A DNA stretch of 64,000 nucleotides from Oscillospiraceae bacterium (GCA_015064685.1 SVRT01000011.1:9401-73400), one strand, 5' to 3'; shown: positions 12,710 to 29,267, numbered from the stretch's first letter. Notes: a model not told the origin generated them from the sequence alone. Numbers and translations are program-made.

Positions 12710-12743
12710 AATCCTTCCTCCTTTCCATTTTTTGATATAATAA

Positions 12744-13271
12744 TTAAAGATAAAGTTCTATTTTTCTATAACTCTTTGAATTCAATGCAGCTATGCTCGC
12801 AATCGTAAATCGGTTTCCGTCAACGTCCTGTAGCATAAGACTGTCGTCACTTGTGTGCAAAATATTCTTAAACGTATCCTGCATAGTAAAGCTCAGCTCT
12901 CTGCCGTCAACGAGAGATACCTTCCAATAAGAAAAGCCGTATCTTTCCTTAACGCTTTTGATCTCCTTAATAATTGGCGAATAATATTTCCGTTCGATCT
13001 CTTCCTTGATTTTAGCTACAGCCTCGCCCTCAAAGTCGTCAACGTCAAAAATTATGCCGATCTCCTTTTTTTCTTCGCCAAGTACTGAAATAAACTTATA
13101 CGGCAACTCGTAAGGAAACGCTCTGTGAAGAAATATCCTGTCAAATCTTTGCTCTTCACCGTTTTCCGTGAAAATCAAAGCTAAAAACCCGTTTTTCTCC
13201 TCAAAGCGCGCATTACTTTTATCAAGTCGCACGATACGGGCAGACTTTTCATTCATTATTTCATTTTCCAT
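12744..13271 (-). CDS. DUF1854-like small cytoplasmic protein encoded between the two ABC subunits
   Basis: 175 aa with no TM segment and AGGAGG 7 nt upstream. My recollection is that DUF1854 proteins accompany this kind of ABC pair. The family assignment was not verified. Confidence 0.6.
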   Translation of the reverse strand: MENEIMNEKSARIVRLDKSNARFEEKNGFLALIFTENGEEQRFDRIFLHRAFPYELPYKFISVLGEEKKEIGIIFDVDDFEGEAVAKIKEEIERKYYSPIIKEIKSVKERYGFSYWKVSLVDGRELSFTMQDTFKNILHTSDDSLMLQDVDGNRFTIASIAALNSKSYRKIELYL

Positions 13272-13287
13272 ATAAAAGCCTCCTTCA

Positions 13288-15585: not shown

Positions 15586-15625
15586 ATATACACCTCACTT
15601 TCCGCAAAAATTGCATCATATAATT

Positions 15626-15654
15626 ATTATAAGACTTTTTTTCACCTTTGTCAA
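15626..15654 (-). promoter_or_regulatory. Sigma-A promoter for the ABC/DUF1854 operon
   Basis: Reverse strand reads TTGACA, 17 nt, TATAAT (perfect consensus). Confidence 0.55.
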
Positions 15655-15697
15655 TAAACCACAGGTAGATTAGACAAATTAATTTGCCGATTTGATA

Positions 15698-15726
15698 TTG
15701 AAAAAACATGTCAGTTGTGATATACT
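15698..15726 (+). promoter_or_regulatory. Sigma-A promoter for radA
   Basis: TTGAAA, 17 nt, TGaTATACT. It lies 30 nt upstream of the radA ATG. Confidence 0.5.
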
Positions 15727-15755
15727 TTATATAATGAAAGAAAAGGAGCCCAAAA

Positions 15756-17147
15756 ATGAAAGGCTTGAAAACAATATACGTATGCTCAAATTGTGAATAC
15801 CACTCCCCGAAGTGGATGGGAAAATGCCCATCCTGCAACCAATGGAACACCATGGTCGAGGATGTCATCAACGTGGCTCCCGAGGAACCCGCGAACAAAA
15901 GAAAATCGATCTCGGGGACACTCGGTGCCGATAATCACGCAATCTCTTACGACGAGCTTGAAATCCCCGACTATATCCGTTCGCAAACGGGACTTGACGA
16001 GCTTGACAGAGTCCTCGGCGGAGGTCTCGTTCACGGCTCTGTCGTACTGATCTCCGGCGAGCCCGGAATCGGTAAATCTACCCTGCTTATGCAGATCTCC
16101 GAGTGCCTCGGTGCAAACCGCCGCGTTCTTTATATTTCGGGCGAGGAATCGGGCGGACAGATCAAGCTCCGCGCCAAAAGACTCGGCGTTTCGGGAAAGA
16201 ATCTCTATATTCTGACAGAGACCAATCTTGACAGCATCCTCAAGGAGGCAGACAAGATAAAGCCCGATATTATGATAATCGACTCTATACAGACCATCTA
16301 CGAAGAGATGATCAAATCCGCGCCGGGAAGCATCACTCAGGTAAGAGAGTCGGCTCTGACGCTAATAAACCGCGCAAAATCGCACGGAATATCGATGCTC
16401 CTCGTGGGTCACGTTAACAAGGAAGGCGGCATTGCAGGACCCAAGGTGCTTGAGCATATGGTCGATGCGGTCCTCTGCTTCGAGGGAGAAAAGCTGCAAT
16501 CATACAGAATAATCCGCGCAAATAAAAACCGCTTTGGCTCAACTAACGAGATAGGTGTGTTTGAGATGACCGACAAGGGACTTGTCGAGATCCCCAATCC
16601 TTCCGAAATGCTTCTTTCGGGCAGACCAAAGAATACTCCCGGCAACTGCGCCGTGTGTACCATCGAGGGTACAAGGCCGATCATCGCTGAGATACAGGCT
16701 CTCGTTTCCCCAACAGCATTTCCCTCTCCGCGTCGCACCTCAAACGGCATAGACTATAACAGACTTTGCCTCATTATCGCAGTGCTTGAAAAAAGGCTCG
16801 GACTCAAGTTCTATCAGAACGACGTATATATGAACGTCATAGGAGGTCTCTATCTCAACGAGCCCGCAAGCGATGCAGCTATTGCTTTAGCTCTCATTTC
16901 CTCGCTTACCGACAAAGCCGTTCCCGACGATCTTATCGCGATAGGCGAGCTTGGTCTTTCGGGCGAGTGTCGCGCTGTATCTAACCTTGAGCAAAGGGTC
17001 AAGGAGGCGGCAAGACTTGGCTTCACAAAGGCTATCGTACCATACAAAAACGTAGAAAAGCGTAAGATAGACACTACAATTGAGCTTATCCCCATTCACA
17101 GTATTTACGAGGCTATCAGAGTCCTTGTCAGTACGTCCGAAAGTTAA
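15756..17147 (+). CDS. radA: DNA repair protein RadA/Sms
   Basis: N-terminal zinc finger YVCSNCEYHSPKWMGKCPSCNQWN, Walker A GEPGIGKST and a Lon-like C-terminal domain. Confidence 0.95.
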   Translation: MKGLKTIYVCSNCEYHSPKWMGKCPSCNQWNTMVEDVINVAPEEPANKRKSISGTLGADNHAISYDELEIPDYIRSQTGLDELDRVLGGGLVHGSVVLISGEPGIGKSTLLMQISECLGANRRVLYISGEESGGQIKLRAKRLGVSGKNLYILTETNLDSILKEADKIKPDIMIIDSIQTIYEEMIKSAPGSITQVRESALTLINRAKSHGISMLLVGHVNKEGGIAGPKVLEHMVDAVLCFEGEKLQSYRIIRANKNRFGSTNEIGVFEMTDKGLVEIPNPSEMLLSGRPKNTPGNCAVCTIEGTRPIIAEIQALVSPTAFPSPRRTSNGIDYNRLCLIIAVLEKRLGLKFYQNDVYMNVIGGLYLNEPASDAAIALALISSLTDKAVPDDLIAIGELGLSGECRAVSNLEQRVKEAARLGFTKAIVPYKNVEKRKIDTTIELIPIHSIYEAIRVLVSTSES

Positions 17148-17186
17148 AAAAATATTCGCTGCTCGACGAGCAGCGAATATTTTTTA
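17146..17186. terminator. Bidirectional intrinsic terminator
   Basis: 15-bp arms aatattcgctgctcg / cgagcagcgaatatt flanked by A and T runs. Confidence 0.85.
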
Positions 17187-18968
17187 TTATCCTCCCCAAT
17201 CGGGGTTAAATCTGTTCAGATCTCTGTCACCCAACTTTAACATGAAGAGTGTTCTATAATCTACACCCTCTCCTACGTTACGTTCCTTCAGCTCATCCTT
17301 GTGACCCAATCTGCGCGCCGTTGCCCACGTGGATCTGAATGCCGCACGCGAGTAGGTGTCCCATAGAGCTATTCTCTCCGCCCCACAATCATAAAGATCG
17401 AGTGCCCTTGATTTGAATTCCTCGCTTGTAAGGTGTCTCGGCAGGATCTCAAAATATACCTTTACGCCGTATTTACGCTCAAGCTCCATCCATTCCTCAA
17501 CACGCTCCCTTTGACTTTTTGGACCGCAAAGCTCACCGCGATAATTGACAATAGGTTCTATCGTCTCAAAGTCACACGGGCGCATATTAACGTGATAAGA
17601 CGTGCGCACGTAATTTGTATACTTGTCAAGGTCAAGCTTTTCTTTACTATCATCCTTCCACACGTCGCCTCCCAAAAGCTCGTGTACTCTCTGTGGATAT
17701 GAAATTATTGCGCTGATAAGACCCTCTTTCGCCCATCTTTCAGCATCAAGTCCAACGTATTTTGAATCGTAAAGTGAGTATATTGATCTGAAATGTATCT
17801 CCACCCTATTCTTTCCGAATTCTTTGTCGAGCGCCTCTCGAAGCTCTCTGACATATTCGGTCATAATGTCGCAATGAAGCTTATTAAGTCTTTCCTCGTC
17901 AAGAGGAAGCTCGTAGGGGTATTCACCGTAAAGCTCATAGAACCTTCTTGCGACGGGTTCCTCAAAAAGCACGTACGGTATGCCTCTGTGCGCCATTATC
18001 GTAACCGCATCACATTCCGACCTTGCGCATTCCACAAGCTCGTCAATAAGAAATTTGCGCACCTCGGGGTAGGCGTACGACATCGCCCTTATCTCATCTC
18101 CGTTTCTGTCGCGCGTGCGCCACTCGGGATGTGATTCAACAAAGTCGCAATCAAAATAGAATTGATCGTACGGAAACGGCATTCCCCATCCGCCCATCCT
18201 CATGGACACACTTGACTTAATGCCCATCTTTTTACATTGATCTACAACCGTACAGATCGCCTTGTGCATGTCGAATTTTTTCATGCTCTCCTGCACGTGT
18301 CTGTCTATTTGGGTAGGAAACGCGAAATCGTCTATATTGTCAACTGCAAGATGATTCGAAACAAGCGTTGCAAGCGTTTCGACCGAGAGCCACTCAATAT
18401 CTGAGTCCTCATAATTAATTGCAACCGCACGCCAATCGTCATAGCTGTTCTGATTGATAAATGCAAGGCGGTTGTGCAGATCATCGGTTGCGTATATTCG
18501 CTTTGTATCTCGTCTCGTTTGCTCGCGTTTATACTCAGCAACCTCTTCATCGTTCATAGGGATAAATTTTATCGCGGAAAGCACACTGTAGTTTGTATAC
18601 GCATCAAGCTTTTTCGATAAAATAATACTCTGATCCGTCATATCAGCGCATTTCCAGAGCACCTCCTCGATTAGATATCTCCTTTTCGTCACGGCAGACA
18701 TACAAATGAAGGCATCATCTCCCGAGAGCTTCAAATAAACGGAACTTCTACCCGGAAGATGAATTAAAATTTTATACCATCCTTTAAGCTTAGGATCGAA
18801 CGAAATATCCTCGGGCATACCATCTATGGAGGATATGAGTCTTCCCGAATATTCAGATGTGTCGAGTTCGATCGCTCTCCATTTATTTTTTAGCGATATT
18901 TCGGAAAAATGCTTCTTTGGCTCAAAGCATTCGTAAAGATCCGAAAACAATACAATCCCTCTCTCCAT
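17187..18968 (-). CDS. Hypothetical cytoplasmic protein, possibly a glycoside-hydrolase-like TIM barrel
   Basis: Clean 593-aa ORF with no signal peptide. The central region (SVSMRMGGWGMPFPYDQFYFDCDFVESHPEWRTRDRNGDEIRAMSYAYPEVRKFLIDELVE) resembles GHL10/YngK-type hydrolase-like domains. The function is unverified. Confidence 0.4.
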   Translation of the reverse strand: MERGIVLFSDLYECFEPKKHFSEISLKNKWRAIELDTSEYSGRLISSIDGMPEDISFDPKLKGWYKILIHLPGRSSVYLKLSGDDAFICMSAVTKRRYLIEEVLWKCADMTDQSIILSKKLDAYTNYSVLSAIKFIPMNDEEVAEYKREQTRRDTKRIYATDDLHNRLAFINQNSYDDWRAVAINYEDSDIEWLSVETLATLVSNHLAVDNIDDFAFPTQIDRHVQESMKKFDMHKAICTVVDQCKKMGIKSSVSMRMGGWGMPFPYDQFYFDCDFVESHPEWRTRDRNGDEIRAMSYAYPEVRKFLIDELVECARSECDAVTIMAHRGIPYVLFEEPVARRFYELYGEYPYELPLDEERLNKLHCDIMTEYVRELREALDKEFGKNRVEIHFRSIYSLYDSKYVGLDAERWAKEGLISAIISYPQRVHELLGGDVWKDDSKEKLDLDKYTNYVRTSYHVNMRPCDFETIEPIVNYRGELCGPKSQRERVEEWMELERKYGVKVYFEILPRHLTSEEFKSRALDLYDCGAERIALWDTYSRAAFRSTWATARRLGHKDELKERNVGEGVDYRTLFMLKLGDRDLNRFNPDWGG

Positions 18969-19100
18969 CTTATCTCTCCTTTTGGGAATACCAATAACTA
19001 CGTATATTTATAACATACCAAAAGTGAAATGTCAAGACCAAATTTTCACTTAATCGTCTTTATAAAAACTATTGCCACATAAATTTTATACCGTAAACAT

Positions 19101-19129
19101 TTGACAAACGGTATTTTATGTGCTATAAT
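19101..19129 (+). promoter_or_regulatory. Perfect consensus sigma-A promoter driving the TerB/ATPase/helicase cassette
   Basis: TTGACA (19101-19106), 17 nt spacer, TGcTATAAT (-10 at 19124-19129). The ORF-track start at 19101 is this -35 box, so it is an artefact. Confidence 0.6.
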
Positions 19130-19178
19130 AATATATTACAGTAATTCTTTATATTTCATGGCAAAAGGAGGGCTTTTT

Positions 19179-20867
19179 ATGACAGATCATAACAAGGGTG
19201 ACGATTTCTGGGATCTTAGCGCATTCGCCAAGAAAAATGAAAAAACTACACCTGCCACTCCCTCCTATCCAATTCACCGAATCTCGGCGATAGAAATAAA
19301 GGATAATAAAGCCTGTACCGTTGAAAGCGACAAGATTGATACCGCAGAGACGATGATAACAAAGTTTATCCCTCCTCACAGCGATGCAAGCTTTGTCAAG
19401 AAGAACATTATTTTCGAATATGAACCTGAAAACCCATTGATTAAAAAAGTTACGGTATACTCAGACAAAACCGGAGAAGAACTTTTTGTCTCAGATAATC
19501 TCTTCATTCGTGAGCGCCGCGCTCTGCTCGAACGAACAACAACCTTTAAGGAGCCCGTTCCCTTTTATTCCTATGCTCCAAGATATTCGCAGTTGAATAA
19601 AGCTCAGCTGAACTGGTATATCTGGTGGAGACAAAACGCGAGAAACGGACATTTTATTAAGACCGACGAGTCCTATGTTATGCTCTATGCCTACGAGCTT
19701 GCAGCAACGGGTGAGGGCGAGGATAAAGCGGCTGCACTTGAGAGCCTCTGTTCTCTTTTGACGGGATTTAGTGCGACCGATCTCGGCATAGTTTACAAAA
19801 TAATGATCCGCGATATTATATGTGACTTTTGTCTTATCCACAAACTTCCCTCTCCTGTTCATTTGCTCTCGGGTGTTGAGAAACAAGTGTTGTTCGGCTC
19901 TTTTTTACCCGAGTTTTTCGTGGATTTCTCACAGAATAAGCAGCATTGCGCTCCGCTTTTGGCGGCAATGTCGCTTTATGACTATCGCAGAAGCAAGTGT
20001 TACACTGAAGAAAGCGCGGACACCTTCAAAAAAGGTGTTGACGGTGCGATAAACGCAGTAATCAACAATGAGGATGCATTTAATTCAATAACATCCTTTA
20101 CAAGAGGCGTATACGGCGGTGTGACCGAGGACCGTCATCCCTTTACCAGAATGGTGAACATCGTAAATAAAAACATTAAGATCGAGATAGTTTATTACGA
20201 GCTTTCCAATCTTAAATCTGCAATTACCGACGTAGTCCGCTATTCCGAAAACAAGATACGCGAGCATCTTGGAATCAGAAACAAGATTCACGTGCTCACA
20301 GTAAATCCACATGCCAGAGCAGCGATAGATGTCTTCTTCGAGGACAATCTTCCTGCCCGTCAGTTCATAGACAGAAGGCGAAAGGATGCAAAGCTTGCCG
20401 AGAACGAGCCGCACGAATACGACAAACTGTACGACCTTCCCAAAACCGAAATTTCTCCCGAACGAGCGCTTGAGATCGAGCGAGAGTCCTGGGATACTAC
20501 AAAAAAGCTTACGGAAGCTTTTGAAGACACCGAGAACATTAACAAAACGGTCGTAGATCCTATAACTGAGCCTCTAAAGCCAATCAATGAAACTCCCGAG
20601 CTTCTCCCCCCCGAGCCCATCTCGGACATGAACGATCTCTATTCACAGCTTATCTCAAAGCTTGGAGATATAGCTAGATTTATTAATCTCTGTAAAGGCT
20701 CCGGCATTGTGGAGCAAAGAAAATTCGCCTCGTCTCACAACAGTACAGTCGACGAGATAGCCGACAGAATAAACGAAGCGGCAGCAGAGCTTTTCGGGGA
20801 CATTATTCTTGATAATGAGGGCAAAGCGTATACCATTATAGAAGATTACCTTTTCTTATTTAATTGA
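19179..20867 (+). CDS. TerB_N/TerB_C domain protein (Shango SngA-like)
   Basis: Start moved to ATG 19179 because AAGGAGGG lies at 19165-19172. The TerB_N-like signature is YAPRYSQLNKAQLNWYIWWRQNARNGHFIKTDESYVMLYAYELA. The TerB_C-like tail is TVDEIADRINEAAAELFGDIILD. No TM segments. Confidence 0.75.
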   Translation: MTDHNKGDDFWDLSAFAKKNEKTTPATPSYPIHRISAIEIKDNKACTVESDKIDTAETMITKFIPPHSDASFVKKNIIFEYEPENPLIKKVTVYSDKTGEELFVSDNLFIRERRALLERTTTFKEPVPFYSYAPRYSQLNKAQLNWYIWWRQNARNGHFIKTDESYVMLYAYELAATGEGEDKAAALESLCSLLTGFSATDLGIVYKIMIRDIICDFCLIHKLPSPVHLLSGVEKQVLFGSFLPEFFVDFSQNKQHCAPLLAAMSLYDYRRSKCYTEESADTFKKGVDGAINAVINNEDAFNSITSFTRGVYGGVTEDRHPFTRMVNIVNKNIKIEIVYYELSNLKSAITDVVRYSENKIREHLGIRNKIHVLTVNPHARAAIDVFFEDNLPARQFIDRRRKDAKLAENEPHEYDKLYDLPKTEISPERALEIERESWDTTKKLTEAFEDTENINKTVVDPITEPLKPINETPELLPPEPISDMNDLYSQLISKLGDIARFINLCKGSGIVEQRKFASSHNSTVDEIADRINEAAAELFGDIILDNEGKAYTIIEDYLFLFN

Positions 20868-20890
20868 ACCTAAAAAGGACGGATCAATAC

Positions 20891-22276
20891 ATGGAACAAA
20901 TAAATAACACAACACCTCAGGTGCCTCGCAGAATACTCTCTTCTCTTCTGTCAAGCGTATCTGCGGGTGTAGTACCTCGTGCAGGCGCACCTTATATCGC
21001 AATAGGCAGAAAAGATGAGATCTCAGCATTTCTGTCTGACCTAGAGGAGATAAACGATGGTGGAGGCGCAATGCGCTTCCTTATCGGACGTTACGGAAGC
21101 GGAAAGAGCTTCCTTATTCAGCTCATACGCGGCTACGCGCTTGAGCGCGATTTCCTGACCGCAGACTGTGATCTCTCTCCCGAGCGACGCCTTTGCGGAA
21201 GCGGACACGGAGGTATTTCGACCTACCGTGAGCTGATGAAAAACCTCGCGTCCAAATCCTCACCCGACGGCAATGCGCTCTCAAAGATAATTCTCCGCTG
21301 GACGGGAAAGCTTCGTTCCGAGCTTGTTGACAGCGGCATATCACCCGACAGCGAAAAGCTATACAGAGAGCTGAGCCGTAAGGTACACTCGGAGCTTGAT
21401 GATCTTGAATTCATGGTCGGAGGCTTTGATTTTGCGCGCGTAATATATGAGTACTACGTAGCAAGCGTTTCAGATTCCGACGAGGCAAATGCAAAAATGA
21501 GCGCGTGTCTGCGCTGGCTCAGAGGTGAGTTTTCCACCAAAACAGAAGCGAAAAACGCACTTGGATTCCCCGTTTCAATCATCATCGACGATGATAACTG
21601 GTACGACTTTATCAAGCTCTGGGCAACTCTTTCCAGGAAGATCGGCTACAGAGGTCTCGTAGTTTTCATCGACGAGTGTGTAAACCTTTATAAGATACCC
21701 AATCGAATAAGCCGTGAGAATAACTACGAAAAGATACTTTCAATGTTCAATGATACTCTTCAAGGACGCGCCCCGGGTCTTGATATCATCTTCGGAGGGA
21801 CACCGCAGTTTCTTGAGGATACCCGCAGGGGACTTTTCAGTTACGAAGCTCTGCGCTCGCGCCTTTGCGACAGTAGATTTGCGCTTGACGGTTTCAAGAA
21901 TCTCATAGGACCCGTAATACGTTTACGCAGACTTAGCGATGATGAGCTTTTTGCACTTATTCAGCGAATAACGGTCCTCTATTCTCAATATTATAATTGG
22001 GAATGTACCGTATCCAATGAAGACAGGTTGAAATTTTTAAATATATGTCTTTCAAAAGCAGGTGCGGACAGCATGATCACTCCTCGAGAGATGCTTCGCG
22101 ACTATATGACGGTTCTCAATATTTTAATGCAAAATCCCGACGCGAGCTTTGATGACGTGGTAGGCAAACACGTAACGCTGAAAACAGAGCAGCAAGAGGA
22201 AGAAGAAATAGAAATCGTGTCGACAGATACGCCAACAGACAGAAAGAGATTTACCGCTAACGACATCGAATTCTGA
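20891..22276 (+). CDS. P-loop ATPase, DUF2791/BrxD-like (Shango SngB-like)
   Basis: Walker A GRYGSGKS, Walker B LVVFIDECVN. An alternative TTG start at 20864 would overlap the upstream stop. Confidence 0.75.
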   Translation: MEQINNTTPQVPRRILSSLLSSVSAGVVPRAGAPYIAIGRKDEISAFLSDLEEINDGGGAMRFLIGRYGSGKSFLIQLIRGYALERDFLTADCDLSPERRLCGSGHGGISTYRELMKNLASKSSPDGNALSKIILRWTGKLRSELVDSGISPDSEKLYRELSRKVHSELDDLEFMVGGFDFARVIYEYYVASVSDSDEANAKMSACLRWLRGEFSTKTEAKNALGFPVSIIIDDDNWYDFIKLWATLSRKIGYRGLVVFIDECVNLYKIPNRISRENNYEKILSMFNDTLQGRAPGLDIIFGGTPQFLEDTRRGLFSYEALRSRLCDSRFALDGFKNLIGPVIRLRRLSDDELFALIQRITVLYSQYYNWECTVSNEDRLKFLNICLSKAGADSMITPREMLRDYMTVLNILMQNPDASFDDVVGKHVTLKTEQQEEEEIEIVSTDTPTDRKRFTANDIEF

Positions 22277-22297
22277 TATATTAACAAGGAGAAAAAA

Positions 22298-24565
22298 ATG
22301 ACAGAGGCTGACAGAATATTTGAGCGCTTTCCCGATTTTATCAGAGAATACATCTACTCACACTCCTGGGAGTCTCTGCGCGAGGTGCAAATTGCGGCGG
22401 CAAAGTCTATCTTTGAGACAGAAAACAATCTCCTTCTCACCTCGTCTACCGCAAGCGGAAAAACCGAGGCGGCATTTTTCCCCATCCTTTCGCTTCTTCA
22501 CGAGGATCCGTCTGCCAGCGTTGGTGTGCTGTATATCGCCCCACTCAAAAGCCTTATAAACGATCAGTTTGAACGTCTTGAGGAGCTTCTCGATATGACC
22601 GGTGTCAAGGTCACTCATTGGCACGGAGACGTTGCCATGTCGCACAAAAAAAGATTGCTCGAAAAGCCCTCGGGAATACTGCAGATAACTCCCGAATCGC
22701 TTGAAGCAATGCTGATAAACAGATCGAACGACATACCGCGTTTATTTGGGGATCTGCGCTTCATCGTGATCGACGAGATACACACTCTCACAGGAACAGA
22801 CAGAGGCAATCAGATAATCTGCCAGCTCTCGCGCATTGCTCACCTTATTGGCTATCACCCGAGACGTATCGGACTTTCCGCGACGATCGGTGACCCGTCG
22901 CTCGCAGCGGAATGGCTTTGCGCAGACTCGGGACGAGGAATCGATACTCCTTCTCTTCCTCAGGAAAAGATCCGTTGGAGACTTGGACTTGAGCATTTCT
23001 ATATACAGAATCCCGAAATAGAGACCCCTGCCGAAAAGAAAGAAAAAGAGTCTGCAACTGCTGCTGACTCATACGATAACGTAAAGCAAAAAAAGCCTTA
23101 TACTGTAGATCCCGGATACGAGTATATATACGACTGTGTCAAGGACAAAAAATCCCTTGTTTTCTCAAATTCCAGAGAGGAAACCGAATATATCTGCGCA
23201 ACTCTCAGACAAATTGCTTCATTACGTCAGGATGACGACAGACATATCCTTATCCATCACGGCAATCTCTCTGCATCCCTGCGCGAGGAGGCAGAGATGA
23301 AAATGAGAAACGACGAGGACCATGCTATTACCTGCGCCACAGTAACAATGGAGCTCGGCATTGACATCGGTCGACTTGAAAGAGTTGTTCAGATAGAAGC
23401 TCCTAATACCGTTTCAAGCTTTCTTCAAAGGCTTGGACGTTCGGGGCGCAGAGGAGATCCGCCCGAAATGATGATGGTTTTCAGGGAGGAAGACCCTCTC
23501 CCGAATACTCCCCTCCCTCAGCTCATTCCCTGGGAGCTTCTCAGAGGCATTGCAATAATACAGTTATATATAGAGGAAAGGTTTATCGAGCCTCCTCAAA
23601 GAAAGCAACTGCCGTTCAGTCTGCTTTTCCACCAGACTCTGTCCGTTCTTGCGTCGTCGGGAGAGCTTACTGCGAAAAGACTTGCACATCGAGTTTTGTC
23701 CCTCCCACCATTCAAAGCAGTAAGTGATGAGGATTATAAAACCCTGCTGGTATCAATGCTCAACAACGACTTTATTGAAATGACCGAGGAAAAGGGGCTT
23801 ATAGTCGGTCTTTCGGGCGAAAGGCTCCTCAAAAGCTTCAAGTTCTACGCGGTATTTAAGGACAGCGAGGACTTCACAGTTCGCTGCGGCTCGGATGAGA
23901 TAGGCACTATAACCACTCCCCCTCCCGTTGGGGACAGATTCGCTCTTGCGGGACGTGTTTGGGAGGTAGAAGAGCTTGACATTCAGCACAAGCTCGTTTA
24001 CGTCAAAAAAGTTGACGGAAAGATGGAGATCTCCTGGCCGGGAGACTTCGGTGAGATCCATACGAAAATTCTTAAGCGTATGAAGCAGATACTCGCGGAG
24101 GATACTATCTATCCTTATCTCAAGGAAAACGCGGTAAAACGCCTTATTCAGGCAAGAAAAACCGCAAGAAACACGGGTATGCTCGAGCATTCGCTCGTCC
24201 ATCTCGGAGGATATTCGTGGTGCCTTTTCCCCTGGCTTGGCACACGCTCCTTCAGAACGCTGCGCAAATTTATTCAAAGAAATTCAAAAGATAATAACAT
24301 AAGCGGAATCGAGTTTGAGGGCTGCTACTACATTACGTTTAAAATGGAAAAGGTCACCGATCTCAATTTTATTACGCATCTTCTCAACCGTGTGGAACGA
24401 GACGGAATTGACCGATATGCACTCGTCGAAAACGGAGAGATTCCCGTTTTTGAAAAGTACGACAACTACGTTCCCTACGATCTGCTTCGCAAGGCGTACG
24501 CCGCTGACAAGCTTCGCAGTGACGAGGCTGAGGAGCAGGTACGAAAGATCTTTGAGGAATATTGA
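22298..24565 (+). CDS. Lhr-like DEAD/DEAH-box SF2 helicase (Shango SngC-like)
   Basis: Motif I SSTASGKTEAAF, motif II VIDEIHTL, motif VI QRLGRSGRRG, plus a long C-terminal extension. RBS AAGGAG is 6 nt upstream. Confidence 0.85.
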   Translation: MTEADRIFERFPDFIREYIYSHSWESLREVQIAAAKSIFETENNLLLTSSTASGKTEAAFFPILSLLHEDPSASVGVLYIAPLKSLINDQFERLEELLDMTGVKVTHWHGDVAMSHKKRLLEKPSGILQITPESLEAMLINRSNDIPRLFGDLRFIVIDEIHTLTGTDRGNQIICQLSRIAHLIGYHPRRIGLSATIGDPSLAAEWLCADSGRGIDTPSLPQEKIRWRLGLEHFYIQNPEIETPAEKKEKESATAADSYDNVKQKKPYTVDPGYEYIYDCVKDKKSLVFSNSREETEYICATLRQIASLRQDDDRHILIHHGNLSASLREEAEMKMRNDEDHAITCATVTMELGIDIGRLERVVQIEAPNTVSSFLQRLGRSGRRGDPPEMMMVFREEDPLPNTPLPQLIPWELLRGIAIIQLYIEERFIEPPQRKQLPFSLLFHQTLSVLASSGELTAKRLAHRVLSLPPFKAVSDEDYKTLLVSMLNNDFIEMTEEKGLIVGLSGERLLKSFKFYAVFKDSEDFTVRCGSDEIGTITTPPPVGDRFALAGRVWEVEELDIQHKLVYVKKVDGKMEISWPGDFGEIHTKILKRMKQILAEDTIYPYLKENAVKRLIQARKTARNTGMLEHSLVHLGGYSWCLFPWLGTRSFRTLRKFIQRNSKDNNISGIEFEGCYYITFKMEKVTDLNFITHLLNRVERDGIDRYALVENGEIPVFEKYDNYVPYDLLRKAYAADKLRSDEAEEQVRKIFEEY

Positions 24566-24566
24566 G

Positions 24567-24603
24567 AAAACCCGCAACGGCAAAGCCGTTGCGGGTTTTT
24601 ATC
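24567..24603 (+). terminator. Strong intrinsic terminator closing the cassette
   Basis: Perfect 15-bp stem aaaacccgcaacggc / gccgttgcgggtttt followed by a T-run, starting 2 nt after the stop codon. Confidence 0.9.
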
Positions 24604-24723
24604 AAATATATTATATTCGGCTTTTCGCCGTGCTTATACTCTTCTGTGTTCTATGTTAAATATATATTAAATCCTTAACTGTAACTAAGGAACAAAGATT
24701 ACAGAGATTTCTGCATATTTGAA

Positions 24724-26268
24724 TTACTTCGCGTAGTCTACTGCGCGGCTCTCGCGAATAAGGTTGATCTTGATCTGTCCGGGATACTTGACCTCTGCCT
24801 GGATCTTCGCAGCCATTTCGCGTGCGATGACCTTCATACCGGCATCGTTTACTTCCTCGGGCTTGACCATAACTCTTATCTCACGTCCTGCCTGGATCGC
24901 AAATGCCTTATCTATTCCGCTAAAGCCCTTTGCTATTTCCTCAAGCTTTTCAAGACGCTTGATGTAGTTCTCCATATCCTCGCGTCTCGCGCCGGGTCTA
25001 GCTGCGCTTATTGCGTCCGCTGCCTGAACGAGTACTGCGATAATTGTCTTAGGCTCTACGTCGTTGTGGTGTGCCTCGATAGCGTGTACTACCTCACGGC
25101 TCTCCTTATACTTCTTAGCGGCGTTGACACCTATTTCTACGTGCGATCCCTCAACGTCGTGCGGGAATGCCTTACCGATATCGTGGAGAAGTCCTGCTCT
25201 CTTTGCGAGATTTGCATCTACGCCAAGCTCATCTGCCATAATACCGGCAATGAACGCAACCTCAATCGAATGCTTGAGAACGTTCTGTCCGTAACTTGTT
25301 CTGTACTTAAGCCTACCGAGCAATCTGACAAGCTCGGGATTGATGCCATGGATTCCAACCTCAAAGGTCGCTCTCTCACCTGCCTGCTTGACAGATGCTT
25401 CAACTTCCTTCTGAGCTTTCTCCACCATTTCCTCAATTCTTGCAGGATGTATACGTCCGTCAGAAATGAGTCTTTCAAGTGCTATTCTTGCTACCTCACG
25501 TCTTACAGGGTCGAAGCCTGAAAGAGTGATCGTTTCGGGGGTATCATCAATAATAAGCTCAACACCCGTAAGTGTTTCGATCTTCTGGATGTTTCGTCCT
25601 TCTCGACCGATGATTCTTCCCTTCATTTCTTCACTGGGAAGCGCTACGCTCGATACGGTAGACTCGGATACGTGATCCGATGCGTATCTCTGGATCGCCA
25701 GCGAGATGATGTTCTTTGACTTCTCATCCGCTTCCTCCTTGAACTGAGCCTCAAGCTCGTCAAGTCTCTGAGCCAGCTCGTGCTTCGTCTCGGACTCTAC
25801 ACGCTCAAAGAGCTCTTCCTTTGCTTTTTCCACAGTGATTCCCGAGATCTCCTCGAGTCTCTTAAGCTGTAATCTAAGTACTTCGTTGTGCTGCTCACGG
25901 ATCTCTTCGTTTTCCTTGATCTTCTTATCAAGAATCTCGTTTTTACGCTCGAGTGCCTCCGTCTTTTTATCAATAGTTTCCTCTTTCTGAGCAACTCTGT
26001 TTTCAAGACGTGACATTTCCTTGCGTCTTTCCTTGATCTCGCGTTCAAGCTCGTTTCGCTGAGCCATTATGGTCTCTTTTGCTTCGATCAACGCCTCTTT
26101 CTTTGACGATTCAGCGTTTTTCTTAGCTTCCTCAACGATCTTCTTCGCCTCGGCTTCGGCAGAACCTATCTTCGCCTCACCGATTTTTTTTCTGATAAGA
26201 AAGCCTACGAAAAATCCAAGGGCAACACCAACAACCACACCGATCACGGCATACAGGATTGGTGGCAT
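24724..26268 (-). CDS. rny: Ribonuclease Y
   Basis: N-terminal TM anchor, a coiled-coil region, KH and HD domains (LLHDIGK). Start moved to MPPILY at 26268 because AGGAGG lies about 8 nt upstream. Confidence 0.95.
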
Positions 26269-26456
26269 TTTTTTATTCCTCCTTGGTTTTTTTGGGAGCA
26301 TAACTAAGGCACATAGCGGGACAATTGCTCCGATTTGTCCATGTAAATTATTGAATACGGTGTCGGATCGTATCTTTCATGGTCAATACCATTATGTGCT
26401 ATGATCCGCCTTTATAAATAAACCGAATTTAATCAATTTATAATATACCTTCCTAT

Positions 26457-26485
26457 ATTATACATAAAAAAAGGCGTTTTGTCAA
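26457..26485 (-). promoter_or_regulatory. Perfect consensus sigma-A promoter for rny, nested in the upstream terminator
   Basis: Reverse strand reads TTGACA, 17 nt, TGtTATAAT. The -35 hexamer lies inside the 3' arm of the pmbA terminator stem. Confidence 0.55.
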
Positions 26486-26516
26486 TAGCTTTTTGATTAC
26501 ACTTTGACAAAACGCC
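26465..26516 (-). terminator. Intrinsic terminator of the tldD-pmbA operon
   Basis: 13-bp arms ggcgttttgtcaa / ttgacaaaacgcc with a loop of about 18 nt, followed by TTTTTTT on the reverse strand. Confidence 0.65.
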
Positions 26517-26554
26517 GCTTTATTCATAAAATATTTACGTTTTAGGATGAAATA

Positions 26555-27883
26555 TTATTTTCCGGCAACACTCATATCCTTAACAAGCACGTCGGGAGCG
26601 CCGAATACCGTAAATCCACCCGGAATTCCCCACTTGACCTCATTGGAGAGCGAATCAATGCTCTTGAGCAAAGCAAAGAAGTTACCTGCAACGGTAAATG
26701 ACTTGATAGGTCCTGCCTTCTTACCGTCTTTGATAAGGAATCCTTCGCTTTCGACCGAGAAATCACCCGTGATCGCGTTTGCGCCTGCATGAAGTCCCTT
26801 AACACCGGTTACATATATACCGTCCCCTGCCTTTGCAAAAAGTCCCTCAAGCGTGTCCTCTCCCGCATTGATAGCAAAGTTATACGGAGCGATATTACCA
26901 CCGCGTCGACCGTTGGCGGTCGTCTGCTTCCCGGTCTTGATCGCTGTGGTCAAATCGTAAAGAAGAGTCTTAAGAACACCGTTTTCGACAACGCTCTTCT
27001 TGTAGGTTGCTACACCCTCTTCGTCGAATGGGGTCTGGACGGGACATCCCTCTCTCATCGCGTCGTCTGTTATATTTACGATATCGGAAGCGATCTTCTC
27101 GCCCTCCTTACCTGCAAGCAAGGACATACCGAGAATTGCATTCTTTGCCGAGAAAGAAGGAGAAAACGCAGACAGGATCGATCTCATCTGGCTTCCGTCG
27201 ATAACGACGTTATATTTGCCCGTAGGGATCTCGGTAGCGCCGATCTTCTCAAGCGCACCGTTTACTGCCTTTGCTGGAAGCTCATCAAACTTTTCTCCGT
27301 GTATAGACTCAGCAAACTCGAAGTTGTTACGCGACTCGCCATCCTTATTAACGACTGCTTCGACGTAACATCCTGTCATTCCGACCTTGTTGGAAAGCTC
27401 GAGGCCGTGGGAGTTATACATATAGATCTCGTCTCTGAACGAAATAGCGATCGACTGAGTTCCGTCAACGACCGAGCTATCTGCAGCGTAAGTCTTTTTT
27501 TGAAGCTCGAGCGCCTTATTTTTAAGCTCAGCCGCGTCAATAGCCTCAGGAGCCGGCGCGGTAGGTGTGCCGTATGATTCTGAACCCTTGAAAATAACGA
27601 CGACGTCGTCATTCTCTATTGCTCTTGCGTTATCCGATGCTCTGATAACAAGGTCCTCGATCTCGTCAGCATCGAAGTAGCTTGTCGAAGCATATCCCAT
27701 ATGTCCGTTTACGATGCAACGGAAAGAAACGCTTGCACTCTCACCCGAGCTGAATGCGCTGATCTCGTCCTTGAGTGTCTCTGCGCTGATATTCTCGCCT
27801 ACAGAATAGGTTACCTCATATTCCTCAACGCCGTACTTTGTGCAAGCGGCAGAGATAATTTCTTTTATCTGCTTAAAATCCAT
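26555..27883 (-). CDS. pmbA: TldD/PmbA family metalloprotease subunit (PmbA-like)
   Basis: 442-aa paralogue of the adjacent TldD, lacking the HExxxH motif. Typical C-terminal region GDFSVESEGFLIKDGK. Confidence 0.8.
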   Translation of the reverse strand: MDFKQIKEIISAACTKYGVEEYEVTYSVGENISAETLKDEISAFSSGESASVSFRCIVNGHMGYASTSYFDADEIEDLVIRASDNARAIENDDVVVIFKGSESYGTPTAPAPEAIDAAELKNKALELQKKTYAADSSVVDGTQSIAISFRDEIYMYNSHGLELSNKVGMTGCYVEAVVNKDGESRNNFEFAESIHGEKFDELPAKAVNGALEKIGATEIPTGKYNVVIDGSQMRSILSAFSPSFSAKNAILGMSLLAGKEGEKIASDIVNITDDAMREGCPVQTPFDEEGVATYKKSVVENGVLKTLLYDLTTAIKTGKQTTANGRRGGNIAPYNFAINAGEDTLEGLFAKAGDGIYVTGVKGLHAGANAITGDFSVESEGFLIKDGKKAGPIKSFTVAGNFFALLKSIDSLSNEVKWGIPGGFTVFGAPDVLVKDMSVAGK

Positions 27884-27884
27884 A

Positions 27885-29267
27885 TCAGCGACCTCCTACT
27901 GTGATCTTGGATACGCGGATGAGGGGCTGTCCAACGTCCGTGGGCACACTTCCGCTTGACGATCCACACATTCCCTGTGCAGTCTCAAGGTTCTGTCCTA
28001 CCATATCAATATCCATAAGTATCTGCGATCCCGTTCCGACGAGTGATGCTCCGCGTACAGGTTCACAGATCACACCGTTTCTGATTATATATCCCTCGCT
28101 TACACCGAAGTTAAATTCACCCGTGAGGGGATTTACTGATCCGCCGCCCATGCTCTTTGCATAGAGGCCGTACTCAATAGAGGAAATAATGTCCTCGTTC
28201 TTATCGGGACCGTTTGCAATAAATGTATTTGTCATTCTTGACGTAGGCTCGTACATAAAGCTCTCGCGTCTGCCGTTACCTGTCATTTCCATACCCATTC
28301 TACGAGAGCCAAGACGGTCGATCATATAGCTCTTGAGTACACCGTTCTCAATAAGGACGTTTCTCTGTGTTACGTGTCCCTCGTCATCGATATTCACGGA
28401 GCCCCAAGCACCGGGAATAGTTCCATCGTCAATGGCGGTTACCTTTTCGTTTGCGATCTTCTGACCGAGCTTTCCACACATCTGAGAGGTACCCGTACCA
28501 ACGCTTGTAGCCTCAAGCGAGTGTCCGCAAGCCTCATGGAATATAACTCCGCCAAAGCCGTTTTCGATAGCAACTGTCATCTGTCCTGCGGGACAGTAAT
28601 CAGCGCGGAGATTGACAAGCGCCTGATCAGCAGCCTTGATTCCTACGGACTTAGGATCGATAAAATCAAACATCTCGAGTCCTGTTCCGCGTCCGGGTGA
28701 CGCGCTTCCCGACTGGTTCTCATGTCCGTCGGATGCGACTGCCTGAACTGCAATTCTTGTTCTTACGTGTCTGTCAGAGGTATAGAGACCTTCGCTGTTT
28801 GCGATGAGGATCGTGTGGTCGACAGAAGCAAGGCTTCCCATTACCTGTTTGATCTTCTCGTCGCGCTCGGATGCCGCAAAGCATGCAGACTTGAGAATAT
28901 CGGTTCTAGTCTGCATAGGCGTGCTTCCGGGAAGAATTTTTACGGGATGAATATTCGGGAAAATGCGCTCGGTCAAGTGGATCTGAACCTGCGCATTGCT
29001 CTCTCCGAGTGCATCTGCTACCGCTCTTGCGCAACGGATAAGTCCCGAGCGAGTAATGTCTGTAGTAGTAGCGTATACGGTTCTTGTTCCGATGAACGCA
29101 CGGATTCCGACTCCGGAGGTCACTCCGTCATTGGCTGTATCGATCTTACCGTTAAGGAATCGAATACCGTTATTTCTCGTTCTCTCGGCATATACCTCTG
29201 CGAAGTCCGCGCCGGTAGACATAGCTACTGCAAGCACGTCCTCAAGTATAAGTCTTGAAATAATCAT
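27885..29267 (-). CDS. tldD: TldD metalloprotease subunit
   Basis: HEACGH zinc motif (GGVIFHEACGHSLEAT). A 1-nt gap separates it from pmbA. Confidence 0.9.
   Translation of the reverse strand: MIISRLILEDVLAVAMSTGADFAEVYAERTRNNGIRFLNGKIDTANDGVTSGVGIRAFIGTRTVYATTTDITRSGLIRCARAVADALGESNAQVQIHLTERIFPNIHPVKILPGSTPMQTRTDILKSACFAASERDEKIKQVMGSLASVDHTILIANSEGLYTSDRHVRTRIAVQAVASDGHENQSGSASPGRGTGLEMFDFIDPKSVGIKAADQALVNLRADYCPAGQMTVAIENGFGGVIFHEACGHSLEATSVGTGTSQMCGKLGQKIANEKVTAIDDGTIPGAWGSVNIDDEGHVTQRNVLIENGVLKSYMIDRLGSRRMGMEMTGNGRRESFMYEPTSRMTNTFIANGPDKNEDIISSIEYGLYAKSMGGGSVNPLTGEFNFGVSEGYIIRNGVICEPVRGASLVGTGSQILMDIDMVGQNLETAQGMCGSSSGSVPTDVGQPLIRVSKITVGGR

What the first reader, a model, noticed from the sequence alone, without database searches (positions are those of the whole stretch)
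19101..24603. Self-contained TerB_N/TerB_C + BrxD-like ATPase + Lhr-like helicase cassette (Shango-type anti-phage candidate) between radA and rny
Seen in sequence: three co-directional, tightly packed genes. The first junction is a 23-nt gap (or a 4-nt overlap if the TTG at 20864 is used), and the second is a 21-nt gap. They are framed by a perfect TTGACA-17-TGcTATAAT promoter (19101-19129) and a 15-bp GC-rich terminator (24567-24603). Gene 1 has no TM segment and carries the TerB_N-like block YAPRYSQLNKAQLNWYIWWRQNARNGHFIKTDESYVMLYAYELA and a TerB_C-like tail. Gene 2 is a P-loop ATPase (GRYGSGKS, VVFIDEC) resembling DUF2791/BrxD. Gene 3 is an SF2 helicase (ASGKT, DEIH, QRLGRSGRRG) with a long Lhr-like C-terminus. 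Established knowledge, from memory: this triad was predicted as a DNA-processing conflict system by Anantharaman, Iyer and Aravind (2012). It was shown to protect against phages as 'Shango' by Millman et al. (2022). Its trigger and effector mechanism remain unknown. Inference: this is an accessory defence module sitting in an otherwise housekeeping interval. No integrase or transposase is nearby, so how it was acquired is unclear.
Basis: partly seen in the sequence, partly recalled or inferred. Interest (0 to 1): 0.8.

Follow-up and report, generated by a model that had tools for sequence, protein, structure and literature searches.

The report
Shango defence operon, fixed in clade
This is a complete three-gene Shango anti-phage operon in an uncultured ruminant-gut Clostridia genome: an ordinary member of a catalogued system, unusual only in that every relative examined has inherited it at the same chromosomal spot and that one subunit (SngA) evolves much faster than the other two.

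Summary
Window 19101-24603 is one promoter-to-terminator unit with three co-directional genes. Each gene's best PADLOC hit is a Shango model: SngA 1.6e-36, SngB 1.1e-159, SngC 1.7e-243. Pfam gives TerB_N + TerB_C, BrxC_BrxD, and DEAD + Helicase_C. The SngC model superposes on Lhr-core (TM 0.70) and has no nuclease domain.

One correction: the cassette does not behave as a recent accessory insertion. Every relative examined (RadA or Rny at least 88% identical, 11 lineages) has it beside rny, including six found through anchors independent of Shango. SngB and SngC diverge in step with the housekeeping neighbours. The cassette's own near-consensus promoter travels with it. At greater divergence it sits elsewhere, and the trio also occurs on plasmids.

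SngA diverges 2.4-4.8 times faster than SngB or SngC. Within the species, pN/pS is 0.31 for SngA against 0.00-0.03 for the partners. This marks SngA as the likely phage-facing sensor.

The proposed mechanism is inferred, not shown: SngA senses, SngB (an ORC/Cdc6-type AAA+ ATPase) loads or activates SngC, and SngC (a 3'-to-5' translocase) disrupts phage DNA intermediates. Novelty: new member of a known kind. Interest is modest.

The parts
19101..19129 (+). Sigma-70-type promoter TTGACA-17 nt-TATAAT with an extended -10 (TGc)
   Evidence: 12/12 consensus match with TG. Conserved upstream of sngA in L089, L090, L091, L002, L093, L174 and L175, with a TTTACA variant in L001 and L176, while upstream DNA is unalignable.
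19163..19172 (+). Ribosome-binding site AAAAGGAGGG, 6 nt before the sngA ATG
   Evidence: Read directly from the sequence.
19179..20867 (+). sngA, 562 aa: TerB_N + unassigned central region (helices plus a small beta element in the model) + TerB_C. Low-confidence, probably disordered segments at residues 1-69 and 451-484. This is the fast-evolving subunit.
   Evidence: PADLOC SngA 1.6e-36 over nearly the whole model. Pfam TerB_N 6.4e-13 and TerB_C 5.1e-8. AF2 pLDDT 75. No PDB or BFVD fold match. pN/pS 0.31 within the species.
20891..22276 (+). sngB, 461 aa (470 aa if the TTG at 20864 is used): BrxD-like ORC/Cdc6-type AAA+ ATPase. Walker A GRYGSGKS, Walker B VVFIDE.
   Evidence: PADLOC SngB 1.1e-159, against BrxD 9e-44. 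Pfam BrxC_BrxD 3.2e-148. Motifs. RBS AAAGGA.
22298..24565 (+). sngC, 755 aa: Lhr-core-like SF2 helicase (two RecA domains plus a C-terminal half that aligns with Lhr-core's), no nuclease domain. Motifs GKT, DEIH, SAT, QRLGRSGR.
   Evidence: PADLOC SngC 1.7e-243, against BrxHI 1.7e-127. Pfam DEAD and Helicase_C. AF2 pTM 0.73. Foldseek best hit 5V9X Lhr-core, TM 0.70, E 2.8e-27.
24567..24603 (.). Bidirectional intrinsic terminator shared by convergent sngC and rny: 11-bp GC-rich stem extended to 15 bp, AAA loop, T-tract
   Evidence: -30.0 kcal/mol (z -8.5) on the + strand and -28.2 kcal/mol (z -7.3) on the - strand. Sequence.

Best explanation
SHOWN. Window 19101-24603 is a complete, self-contained Shango operon, sngA-sngB-sngC, with its own near-consensus promoter and a strong terminator. 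It lies in the chromosome of an uncultured ruminant-gut Oscillospiraceae/Clostridia bacterium. It was not recently acquired. It was present in the common ancestor of a genus-level clade and has been inherited vertically beside rny (and usually radA). SngB and SngC are under purifying selection as strong as on the neighbouring housekeeping genes. SngA changes about 3 times faster.

INFERRED mechanism (about 0.35 likely as a whole):
1. SngA has no detectable enzymatic domain, a variable disordered N-tail and a fast-evolving folded core. It is the phage-facing sensor or adaptor and sets specificity.
2. SngB is a standalone ORC/Cdc6-type AAA+ ATPase of the BrxD kind. It oligomerises on ATP and loads or activates SngC, as proposed for the BrxD-BrxHI dyad of type 2 BREX.
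3. SngC is an Lhr-core-type 3'-to-5' ssDNA translocase/helicase and is the effector. It engages phage replication or recombination intermediates (forks, flaps, R-loops) and unwinds or strips them. This stalls phage DNA replication without a dedicated nuclease or toxin, possibly handing the DNA to host nucleases. That would fit the modest (10-100-fold), non-suicidal protection reported for Shango in E. coli and P. aeruginosa.

Identity as Shango: about 0.93.
For: Identity:
- Top PADLOC hits are SngA, SngB and SngC at 1.6e-36, 1.1e-159 and 1.7e-243. Each beats the BREX paralogue models by a wide margin.
- Pfam finds TerB_N, TerB_C, BrxC_BrxD, DEAD and Helicase_C.
- Catalytic motifs are intact.

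Operon structure.

Vertical fixation:
- L001 and L002 were found through RadA. L178-L181 were found through Rny and chosen as the likeliest negatives. L089-L093 were found through SngC. All carry the trio next to rny.
- 14 further Rny homologues share unique contig lengths with SngA or SngC hits.
- Identity to the window in L089 / L090 / L091: SngC 95/90/82, SngB 90/90/80, RadA 96/94/90, PmbA 91/92/79, ABC 91/87/76.

SngA as sensor:
- Its divergence is 2.4-4.8 times that of SngB or SngC in every lineage where it could be measured.
- Between species, dN is 0.156 for SngA against 0.034-0.057 for the other genes.
- Within the species, nonsynonymous:synonymous changes are 9:8 for SngA against 2:42 for SngB+SngC (Fisher p = 5.7e-5). 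For folded regions only the counts are 6:7 (p = 0.001).

SngB as loader: BrxD is classified as a standalone ORC/Cdc6 AAA+ ATPase, tightly linked to BrxHI and proposed to load or activate it (PMC12839542).

SngC as translocase:
- Whole-length structural match to Lhr-core bound to ssDNA (5V9X, TM 0.70), then MrfA and Hel308.
- Lhr is an ATPase, 3'-to-5' translocase and helicase (PMC8053096), and archaeal Lhr prefers fork structures (PMC7437997).
- SngC groups with BrxHI, DruE and DpdJ in a defence-associated SF2 clade (PMC12278908).

Defence function of the family: phage protection was shown in E. coli and P. aeruginosa.
Against: - No experiment exists for this locus or this organism, which is uncultured.
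- No nuclease, toxin or membrane effector is detectable, so the effector step is conjecture.
- Clade-wide fixation and housekeeping-grade constraint on SngB and SngC are atypical for defence systems, which usually turn over quickly.
- SngA's faster rate may be partly relaxed constraint: 3 of its 9 within-species replacements fall in the low-confidence linker, and the within-species contrast rests on one pair of alleles.
- Between-species dS is saturated, so positive selection cannot be shown.
- The canonical TerB domain (PF05099) is not detectable in any of 61 family members.
- SngA has no structural relative in the PDB or BFVD, so its 'sensor' role rests only on evolutionary rate and the lack of catalytic features.
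- The published hypothesis for TerB proteins is membrane surveillance. SngA has no TM segment here, but peripheral membrane binding is not excluded.
Confidence: 0.8

Rival explanations
1. Domesticated genome-maintenance module. In this clade the TerB_N/C protein, AAA+ loader and Lhr-like helicase act mainly as a housekeeping DNA-repair or replication-conflict (R-loop or fork processing) system. They would not be primarily an anti-phage system, although they are homologous to Shango.
For: - The cassette is fixed at one locus in all 11 related lineages.
- It is embedded among DNA-metabolism genes: radA upstream, then rny ... tgt-mutL-mutS downstream.
- SngB and SngC have pN/pS of 0.00-0.03, indistinguishable from housekeeping genes (Fisher p = 1.0).
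- There are no mobility marks.
- The nearest solved relatives, Lhr and MrfA, are DNA-repair helicases.
- The strong constitutive-type promoter is conserved.
Against: - HMM scores to the Shango models far exceed those to repair-helicase models. NCBIfam DEXH_lig_assoc scores 220.8 bits against a cutoff of 850, and PRK13767 scores 183 against 849.
- SngA's elevated replacement rate fits an arms race better than a repair scaffold.
- Closely related cassettes (77-78% SngC identity) sit in other contexts, one next to an integrase.
- The trio is carried on plasmids, and SngB homologues occur on 697 plasmid records, mostly conjugative.
- The next clade out (RadA 74% or lower) lacks it beside radA.
- The family has demonstrated anti-phage activity.
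Confidence: 0.1
2. Remnant or satellite of a type 2 BREX (Pgl) system. Genes 2 and 3 would be the BrxD-BrxHI dyad, left behind or working with BREX genes elsewhere.
For: SngB hits PADLOC BrxD (9e-44) and NCBIfam BREX_BrxD (1.3e-42). SngC hits BrxHI (1.7e-127). BrxD and BrxHI form a linked dyad in type 2 BREX.
Against: - The Sng models score far higher: 530 against 148 bits for gene 2, and 809 against 425 bits for gene 3.
- NCBIfam BrxD scores 146 bits against a cutoff of 350.
- No PglZ, PglX, BrxC or PglW gene is within 10 kb in this or any sister locus.
- The dyad is always preceded by a TerB_N/TerB_C gene under one promoter.
Confidence: 0.02
3. Ter-type (tellurite or metal stress) response locus, given the TerB-related domains of gene 1.
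For: Pfam TerB_N and TerB_C hits. TerB was first described in the tellurite-resistance cassette.
Against: - No terZ, terA, terC, terD or terE-like genes are in the neighbourhood.
- The canonical TerB domain PF05099 is undetectable in the family (1 of 61 members at E = 0.44).
- The gene is in an operon with a helicase and an AAA+ ATPase, which is the DNA-processing association and not the metal-resistance one.
Confidence: 0.02

Closest known systems
Shango (SngABC) of E. coli (Millman et al. 2022) and P. aeruginosa PA14 (Johnson et al. 2023)
   Same: Same three-gene architecture and order: TerB_N/TerB_C protein, BrxD-like ATPase, Lhr-like DEAD/DEAH helicase. Near full-length matches to all three PADLOC models. 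Single operon.
   Different: - The host is an uncultured Gram-positive gut anaerobe.
- The cassette is not in a defence island or a variable hotspot. It is fixed at one housekeeping locus across a whole clade. In P. aeruginosa, Shango is one of many alternative occupants of the hotspot cDHS1.
- The SngA match is much weaker (125 bits) than the SngB and SngC matches (530 and 809 bits).
- Activity is untested here.
BrxD-BrxHI dyad of type 2 BREX (Pgl)
   Same: SngB and SngC are homologous to BrxD (ORC/Cdc6-type AAA+) and BrxHI (SF2 helicase with wHTH, beta-barrel and Lhr-like CTD) over most of their length. This is probably the same loader-plus-helicase logic.
   Different: There is no PglZ, PglX, BrxC or PglW, so no methylation-based self/non-self module. 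The partner is a TerB_N/TerB_C protein instead. The HMM scores favour the Sng models.
Lhr-core / MrfA (YprA) DNA-repair helicases
   Same: The predicted SngC fold superposes on M. smegmatis Lhr-core bound to ssDNA (5V9X, TM 0.70) and less well on MrfA (6ZNP, TM 0.50). It shares the SF2 motifs.
   Different: SngC lacks the tetramerising Lhr-CTD and the MrfA DUF1998 zinc domain, falls far below the NCBIfam equivalog cutoffs, and is in an operon with SngA and SngB.
Other TerB-domain defence systems (Bunzi BnzA, Dionysus DinB)
   Same: All share a TerB-related component of unknown biochemical role in a multi-gene anti-phage system.
   Different: Those systems pair TerB with transmembrane or pore-forming proteins, which suggests membrane surveillance and a membrane effector. 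Here no protein has a TM segment and the partners act on DNA.

Membership tests
Shango (SngABC) | SngA: a TerB_N + TerB_C protein that matches the SngA profile | tested here: met
   PADLOC SngA 1.6e-36, residues 81-558 on model positions 64-520 of 528. Pfam TerB_N 49.4 bits (cutoff 25) and TerB_C 33.7 bits (cutoff 26.3). All 61 family members hit both domains. The canonical TerB PF05099 is NOT detectable (1 of 61 at E = 0.44). That the profile-based definitions do not need it is my inference from the near full-length SngA model match.
Shango (SngABC) | SngB: a BrxD-like (PF10923/DUF2791) P-loop ATPase with intact Walker A and B motifs | tested here: met
   PADLOC SngB 1.1e-159. Pfam BrxC_BrxD 3.2e-148. 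GRYGSGKS and VVFIDE present.
Shango (SngABC) | SngC: an Lhr/BrxHI-like SF2 helicase with intact motifs I, II, III and VI | tested here: met
   PADLOC SngC 1.7e-243, nearly full length. GKT, DEIH, SAT and QRLGRSGR present. Fold matches Lhr-core, TM 0.70.
Shango (SngABC) | The three genes are adjacent, co-directional and co-transcribed | tested here: met
   Gaps of 23 and 21 nt, one promoter, one terminator, no internal terminator on the + strand. Co-transcription itself is inferred.
Shango (SngABC) | Confers resistance to phage infection | not testable with these tools
   Shown only for the E. coli and P. aeruginosa homologues. It needs heterologous expression or genetics.
Type 2 BREX (Pgl) | Core genes PglZ, PglX (methyltransferase) and BrxC/PglY, plus PglW, next to BrxD-BrxHI | tested here: not met
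   None of these Pfam families occurs among the genes within 10 kb of the cassette in the window's species or in the sister loci. NCBIfam BREX_BrxD scores 146 bits against a cutoff of 350.
Ter (tellurite-resistance) stress operon | A canonical TerB (PF05099) together with TerC/TerD-family genes | tested here: not met
   PF05099 is absent. There are no Ter genes in the neighbourhood.
Bona fide Lhr / ligase-associated DEXH repair helicase | Score above the equivalog cutoff; Lhr-CTD or ligase association | tested here: not met
   TIGR04121 scores 220.8 bits against a cutoff of 850, and PRK09751 scores 100 against 1496. The protein ends at 755 aa with no CTD. Only the Lhr-core fold is shared.

The most novel reading that the evidence does not exclude
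In this gut Clostridia clade Shango is no longer a mobile accessory. It is a chromosomally fixed module whose SngB-SngC motor has taken on a constitutive cellular role, such as resolving replication-fork or R-loop conflicts beside radA and mutSL. Only SngA would remain in an arms race. That would make it a case of a defence system caught in domestication, or of a repair system from which Shango-type defence derives.
Probability: 0.1. Interest if true: 0.6.

Novelty: new member of a known kind. Interest (0 to 1): 0.33.

Why it matters
Shango is experimentally validated, but its mechanism is unknown. This locus adds no new architecture. It does offer a natural allelic series. Eleven lineages carry the cassette beside rny, nine of them with the same near-consensus promoter. 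Their SngB and SngC stay at 76-95% identity to the window's, while SngA ranges from 76% to below 50% identity. That points to SngA as the specificity-determining subunit and gives a concrete design for swap experiments. It also shows that a 'defence system' can be as stably inherited and as constrained as its housekeeping neighbours. This is a caution against equating defence genes with accessory genes in defensome surveys of gut and rumen MAGs.

Tried and rejected
- **Metagenome RadA scan for empty sites.** It returned only relatives at 69% identity or lower, with no informative radA-rny junctions.
- **RadA relatives at 74% or lower in GTDB.** Synteny is already broken there: neither rny nor the ABC genes are near radA. 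No clean pre-insertion site could be defined.
- **SngA fold against the PDB and BFVD.** Best E-values were 0.7 and 0.6, with no relative. A domain-level search was not possible with the tools.
- **PDB sequence search for SngA and SngB.** Nothing found, so no Shango structure has been solved.
- **Fusion partners of SngA.** I searched among 2,228 representative clusters. Nearly all of the 150 best-scoring hits match the profile over almost its full length, most are 520-650 aa, and the 10 longer ones carry no enzymatic or canonical TerB domain. This gave no functional lead.
- **Between-species dN/dS.** dS is saturated (above 1.5, or undefined), so only dN and the within-species counts were used.
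- **The 593-aa neighbour and the L091 extra gene as additional defence genes.** Neither has a PADLOC or NCBIfam hit, and they are unrelated to each other.
- **tRNA, Rfam and direct-repeat searches for integration scars or regulatory RNAs.** None found.
- **Anantharaman, Iyer and Aravind 2012.** It is not in the library. Its prediction is cited only through the papers that quote it and from my own knowledge.
- **BREX-remnant and Ter-operon readings.** Both rejected (see rival explanations).

Full report
**1. The observation**

Window 19101-24603 holds three co-directional ORFs.
- Gene 1: the listed TTG start at 19101 is only the -35 hexamer. The real start is ATG 19179, 6 nt after AAAAGGAGGG. 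The protein is 562 aa.
- Gene 2: it most likely starts at ATG 20891, which has AAAGGA 11 nt upstream. The overlapping TTG at 20864 has no RBS. Gene callers on most identical contigs chose the 461-aa form.
- Gene 3: it starts at ATG 22298, 7 nt after AAGGAG.
- Promoter: TTGACA-17-TGcTATAAT at 19101-19129 is a 12/12 match with an extended -10. The total count of promoter-like sites in the region is not above the shuffled expectation (24 against 17.7 +/- 3.9), so the match alone is weak evidence. Conservation is the strong evidence (section 4).
- Terminator: the hairpin after gene 3 folds at -30 kcal/mol (z = -8.5) and at -28.2 kcal/mol on the opposite strand. It can terminate both sngC and the convergent rny. 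The pattern scan missed it, probably because A-U pairs that extend the stem use up the T-tract (my inference).
- All quoted motifs are present and no protein has a TM segment.

**2. What the genes are**

Each protein's best PADLOC hit is a Shango model, and each outscores the BREX paralogue.

| Protein | Shango model | Bits | BREX paralogue | Bits |
|---|---|---|---|---|
| Gene 1 | SngA, 1.6e-36 (model positions 64-520 of 528) | 125 | - | - |
| Gene 2 | SngB, 1.1e-159 | 530 | BrxD | 148 |
| Gene 3 | SngC, 1.7e-243 | 809 | BrxHI | 425 |

- Pfam gives TerB_N and TerB_C, BrxC_BrxD (3.2e-148), and DEAD + Helicase_C with a sub-threshold WH_Lhr.
- NCBIfam has no model for SngA. It places SngB and SngC far below the BrxD and repair-helicase equivalog cutoffs.
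- The PDB holds no sequence relative of SngA or SngB. The best relatives of SngC are Lhr-core 5V9X, MrfA/YprA 6ZNP and full-length Lhr 7LHL.

**3. Structure predictions**

- SngC (pLDDT 77, pTM 0.73) superposes on Lhr-core bound to ssDNA over its whole length (TM 0.70, E = 2.8e-27). MrfA, Hel308/Hjm and Pol-theta helicase follow. It shares the whole Lhr-core fold and has no appended nuclease or toxin domain.
- SngA (pLDDT 75) has low-confidence, probably disordered segments at residues 1-69 and 451-484, a confident core at about 70-405 (two small beta elements plus helices), and a helical TerB_C at 485-560.
- The SngA model has no significant match in the PDB or in BFVD.
- Across 61 family members, TerB_N and TerB_C are always found. 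The canonical TerB PF05099 essentially never is (1 of 61, E = 0.44).
- A profile search finds 2,228 representative clusters. Nearly all of the 150 best hits match the profile over almost its full length and most are 520-650 aa. The 10 longer ones carry no informative domain.

**4. Where it sits and how it got there**

The exact SngC protein is found on 19 contigs from ruminant and other gut metagenomes, and the eight examined have the same neighbours as far as they extend. Source names point to uncultured Oscillospiraceae/Ruminococcaceae.

Three independent anchors were used.
- **RadA against GTDB species representatives.** Only two relatives exceed 74% identity: L001 at 92% and L002 at 91%. 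Both have sngA and sngB directly after radA. L002 continues through sngC to rny, while the L001 contig ends inside sngC. All 78 relatives at 74% or lower lack the cassette, and also lack rny near radA.
- **SngC and SngA homologues.** At 95%, 90% and 83% SngC identity the backbone is identical: ABC-DUF1854-ABC-radA-[SngABC]-rny-pmbA-tldD-...-tgt-mutL-mutS.
  - At 79% (L093) and 77% (L174) the cassette is still linked to rny. The upstream side is replaced by two giant ORFs, or by an integrase plus unknown genes.
  - At 78% (L175) the cassette lies in an unrelated context (rplJL/glyS ... ligA).
- **Rny homologues.** This anchor is also independent of Shango. 14 hits at 88% identity or above on contigs over 20 kb share unique contig lengths with SngA or SngC hits. 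I then looked up four unmatched ones as the likeliest negatives, and all four carry the trio next to rny (L178-L181).

No empty site was found.

Different small inserts occupy both flanks in different lineages: an AraC regulator, GH92, transposase fragments, unknown genes, and the 593-aa gene in the window.

The promoter TTGACA-17-TGnTATAAT is conserved at the same distance upstream of sngA in seven other lineages, with a TTTACA variant in two more. DNA upstream of the -35 box cannot be aligned. Six of the seven sister loci checked have their own GC-rich hairpin after sngC, and L089 shows none in the 110 nt examined. The unit that is inherited, and occasionally relocated, is therefore exactly promoter-to-terminator.

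In the window there is no tRNA, Rfam element, integrase or flanking direct repeat.

As a family the trio is mobile. SngB homologues occur on 697 plasmids, 542 of them conjugative, and on none of 50,697 phage records. A Clostridium estertheticum plasmid carries the trio beside a relaxase and IS110.

**5. Evolutionary rates**

Identity to the window:

| Protein | L089 | L090 | L091 |
|---|---|---|---|
| RadA | 96 | 94 | 90 |
| Rny | 99 | 97 | 90 |
| PmbA | 91 | 92 | 79 |
| ABC | 91 | 87 | 76 |
| SngC | 95 | 90 | 82 |
| SngB | 90 | 90 | 80 |
| SngA | 76 | 66 | 51 |

- SngB and SngC diverge in step with the housekeeping neighbours, as vertical descent predicts.
- SngA diverges 2.4-4.8 times faster in every lineage where it could be measured.
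- Between species dS is saturated. For L089, dN is 0.156 for SngA against 0.034-0.057 for the other genes except rny (0.009) and radA (0.029).
- The two low-confidence segments of SngA are the most variable, but the folded parts are also faster: 78-86% identity in L089, against 92-96% for SngB and SngC.
- Within the species (window against L081, 1.4% nucleotide divergence), replacement:silent codon changes are as follows:

| Gene | Replacement | Silent |
|---|---|---|
| SngA | 9 | 8 |
| SngB | 2 | 17 |
| SngC | 0 | 25 |
| RadA | 2 | 28 |
| ABC | 4 | 42 |
| PmbA | 1 | 16 |
| TldD | 0 | 24 |

- By Fisher's exact test, SngA differs from SngB+SngC (p = 5.7e-5) and from the housekeeping genes (p = 4.8e-6). 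SngB+SngC do not differ from the housekeeping genes (p = 1.0).
- With the low-confidence segments removed, SngA is still 6:7 (p = 0.001).
- Caveat: this is one allele pair. A pN/pS of 0.31 fits relaxed constraint as well as diversifying selection on a subset of sites.

**6. How it most likely works**

Shown:
- Homology to Shango.
- Intact ATPase and helicase motifs.
- An Lhr-core fold for SngC.
- No recognisable nuclease, toxin or membrane domain.
- SngA as the fast-evolving partner.

From the literature:
- Shango protects E. coli (about 10-fold) and P. aeruginosa (10-100-fold on plates, strong protection in liquid culture).
- How TerB-type defence proteins work was still described as unclear in September 2025.
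- BrxD is a standalone ORC/Cdc6 AAA+ ATPase, tightly linked to BrxHI and proposed to load or activate it.
- Lhr is an ATPase, 3'-to-5' translocase and helicase, and archaeal Lhr prefers forks.
- SngC groups with BrxHI, DruE and DpdJ.

Inferred (about 0.35 likely as a whole):
- SngA senses a phage component or a phage-induced state.
- SngB uses ATP to load or activate SngC.
- SngC translocates on and remodels phage replication or recombination intermediates. It would block phage DNA replication without killing the cell, possibly exposing the DNA to host nucleases.
- The published alternative is membrane surveillance by TerB. That fits poorly with proteins that have no TM segment and partners that act on DNA, but it is not excluded.

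**7. Comparison, novelty and score**

- The locus meets every sequence-testable defining feature of Shango. It fails those of type 2 BREX, the Ter operon and bona fide Lhr.
- It is a new member of a known kind, and standard tools such as PADLOC would call it automatically.
- Two things are mildly unexpected. The first is clade-wide vertical fixation at a housekeeping locus with housekeeping-grade constraint on SngB and SngC. The second is the consistent rate asymmetry that singles out SngA.
- Neither changes what kind of system this is, and the host is uncultured.
- The most novel reading not excluded is partial domestication of the SngB-SngC motor for genome maintenance. I put it at about 0.1.

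Noticed in passing
window 17187-18968 (-): A 593-aa orphan gene lies between radA and the Shango promoter. It has only a faint GHL6 (glycosyl-hydrolase-like) hit and no PADLOC or NCBIfam hit. It is absent from every sister lineage. Its within-species nucleotide diversity is 0.3%, against about 2% in radA and the ABC gene, so it looks like a recent lineage-specific insertion.
   Followed up: partly
L178-L181, L091/L092, L093, L174, L176 (flanks of the cassette): Both flanks of the conserved cassette hold different cargo in different lineages: an AraC regulator, GH92 plus an unknown gene, FBPase/CitMHS fragments with a DDE transposase, a 575-598-aa unknown protein, an integrase with unknown genes, and two giant ORFs of 1,543-1,974 aa with no Pfam domain. 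These look like two small insertion hotspots bracketing a stable defence operon.
   Followed up: partly
L083 against window 12298-28781: Contig L083 is 100% identical to the window from 12298 through the Shango terminator region (to 24723). It is then 13-20% diverged at the nucleotide level in rny, pmbA and tldD. This is either a homologous-recombination breakpoint or an assembly chimera, at or just after the intergenic region that follows the terminator.
   Followed up: partly
window 19124-19138 and alignment A3: The block TATAATAATATATTA, which runs from the -10 box into the initial transcribed region, is almost invariant in six lineages (a single substitution in L002). This is more than promoter function needs, so it may be an operator or a start-site element.
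   Followed up: no
SngA residues 8-13 and 60-67 (window 19200-19217 and 19356-19379): Within the otherwise variable, low-confidence N-terminal tail, F10, W11 and L13 (DDFWDL) and I60, T61 and P65 (ITKFIPPH) are invariant across 61 homologues. They are candidate short linear interaction motifs.
   Followed up: no
window 17147-17185: A perfect 19-nt inverted repeat with a 1-nt spacer lies between the convergent radA and the 593-aa gene. It is probably a bidirectional terminator.
   Followed up: no
window 10454-15585 (-): An ABC exporter pair with a DUF1854 gene between them. The 765-aa member has an N-terminal extension of about 190 aa that contains a zinc ribbon (CPKC...CPKC). The arrangement is conserved next to radA across the clade.
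   Followed up: no
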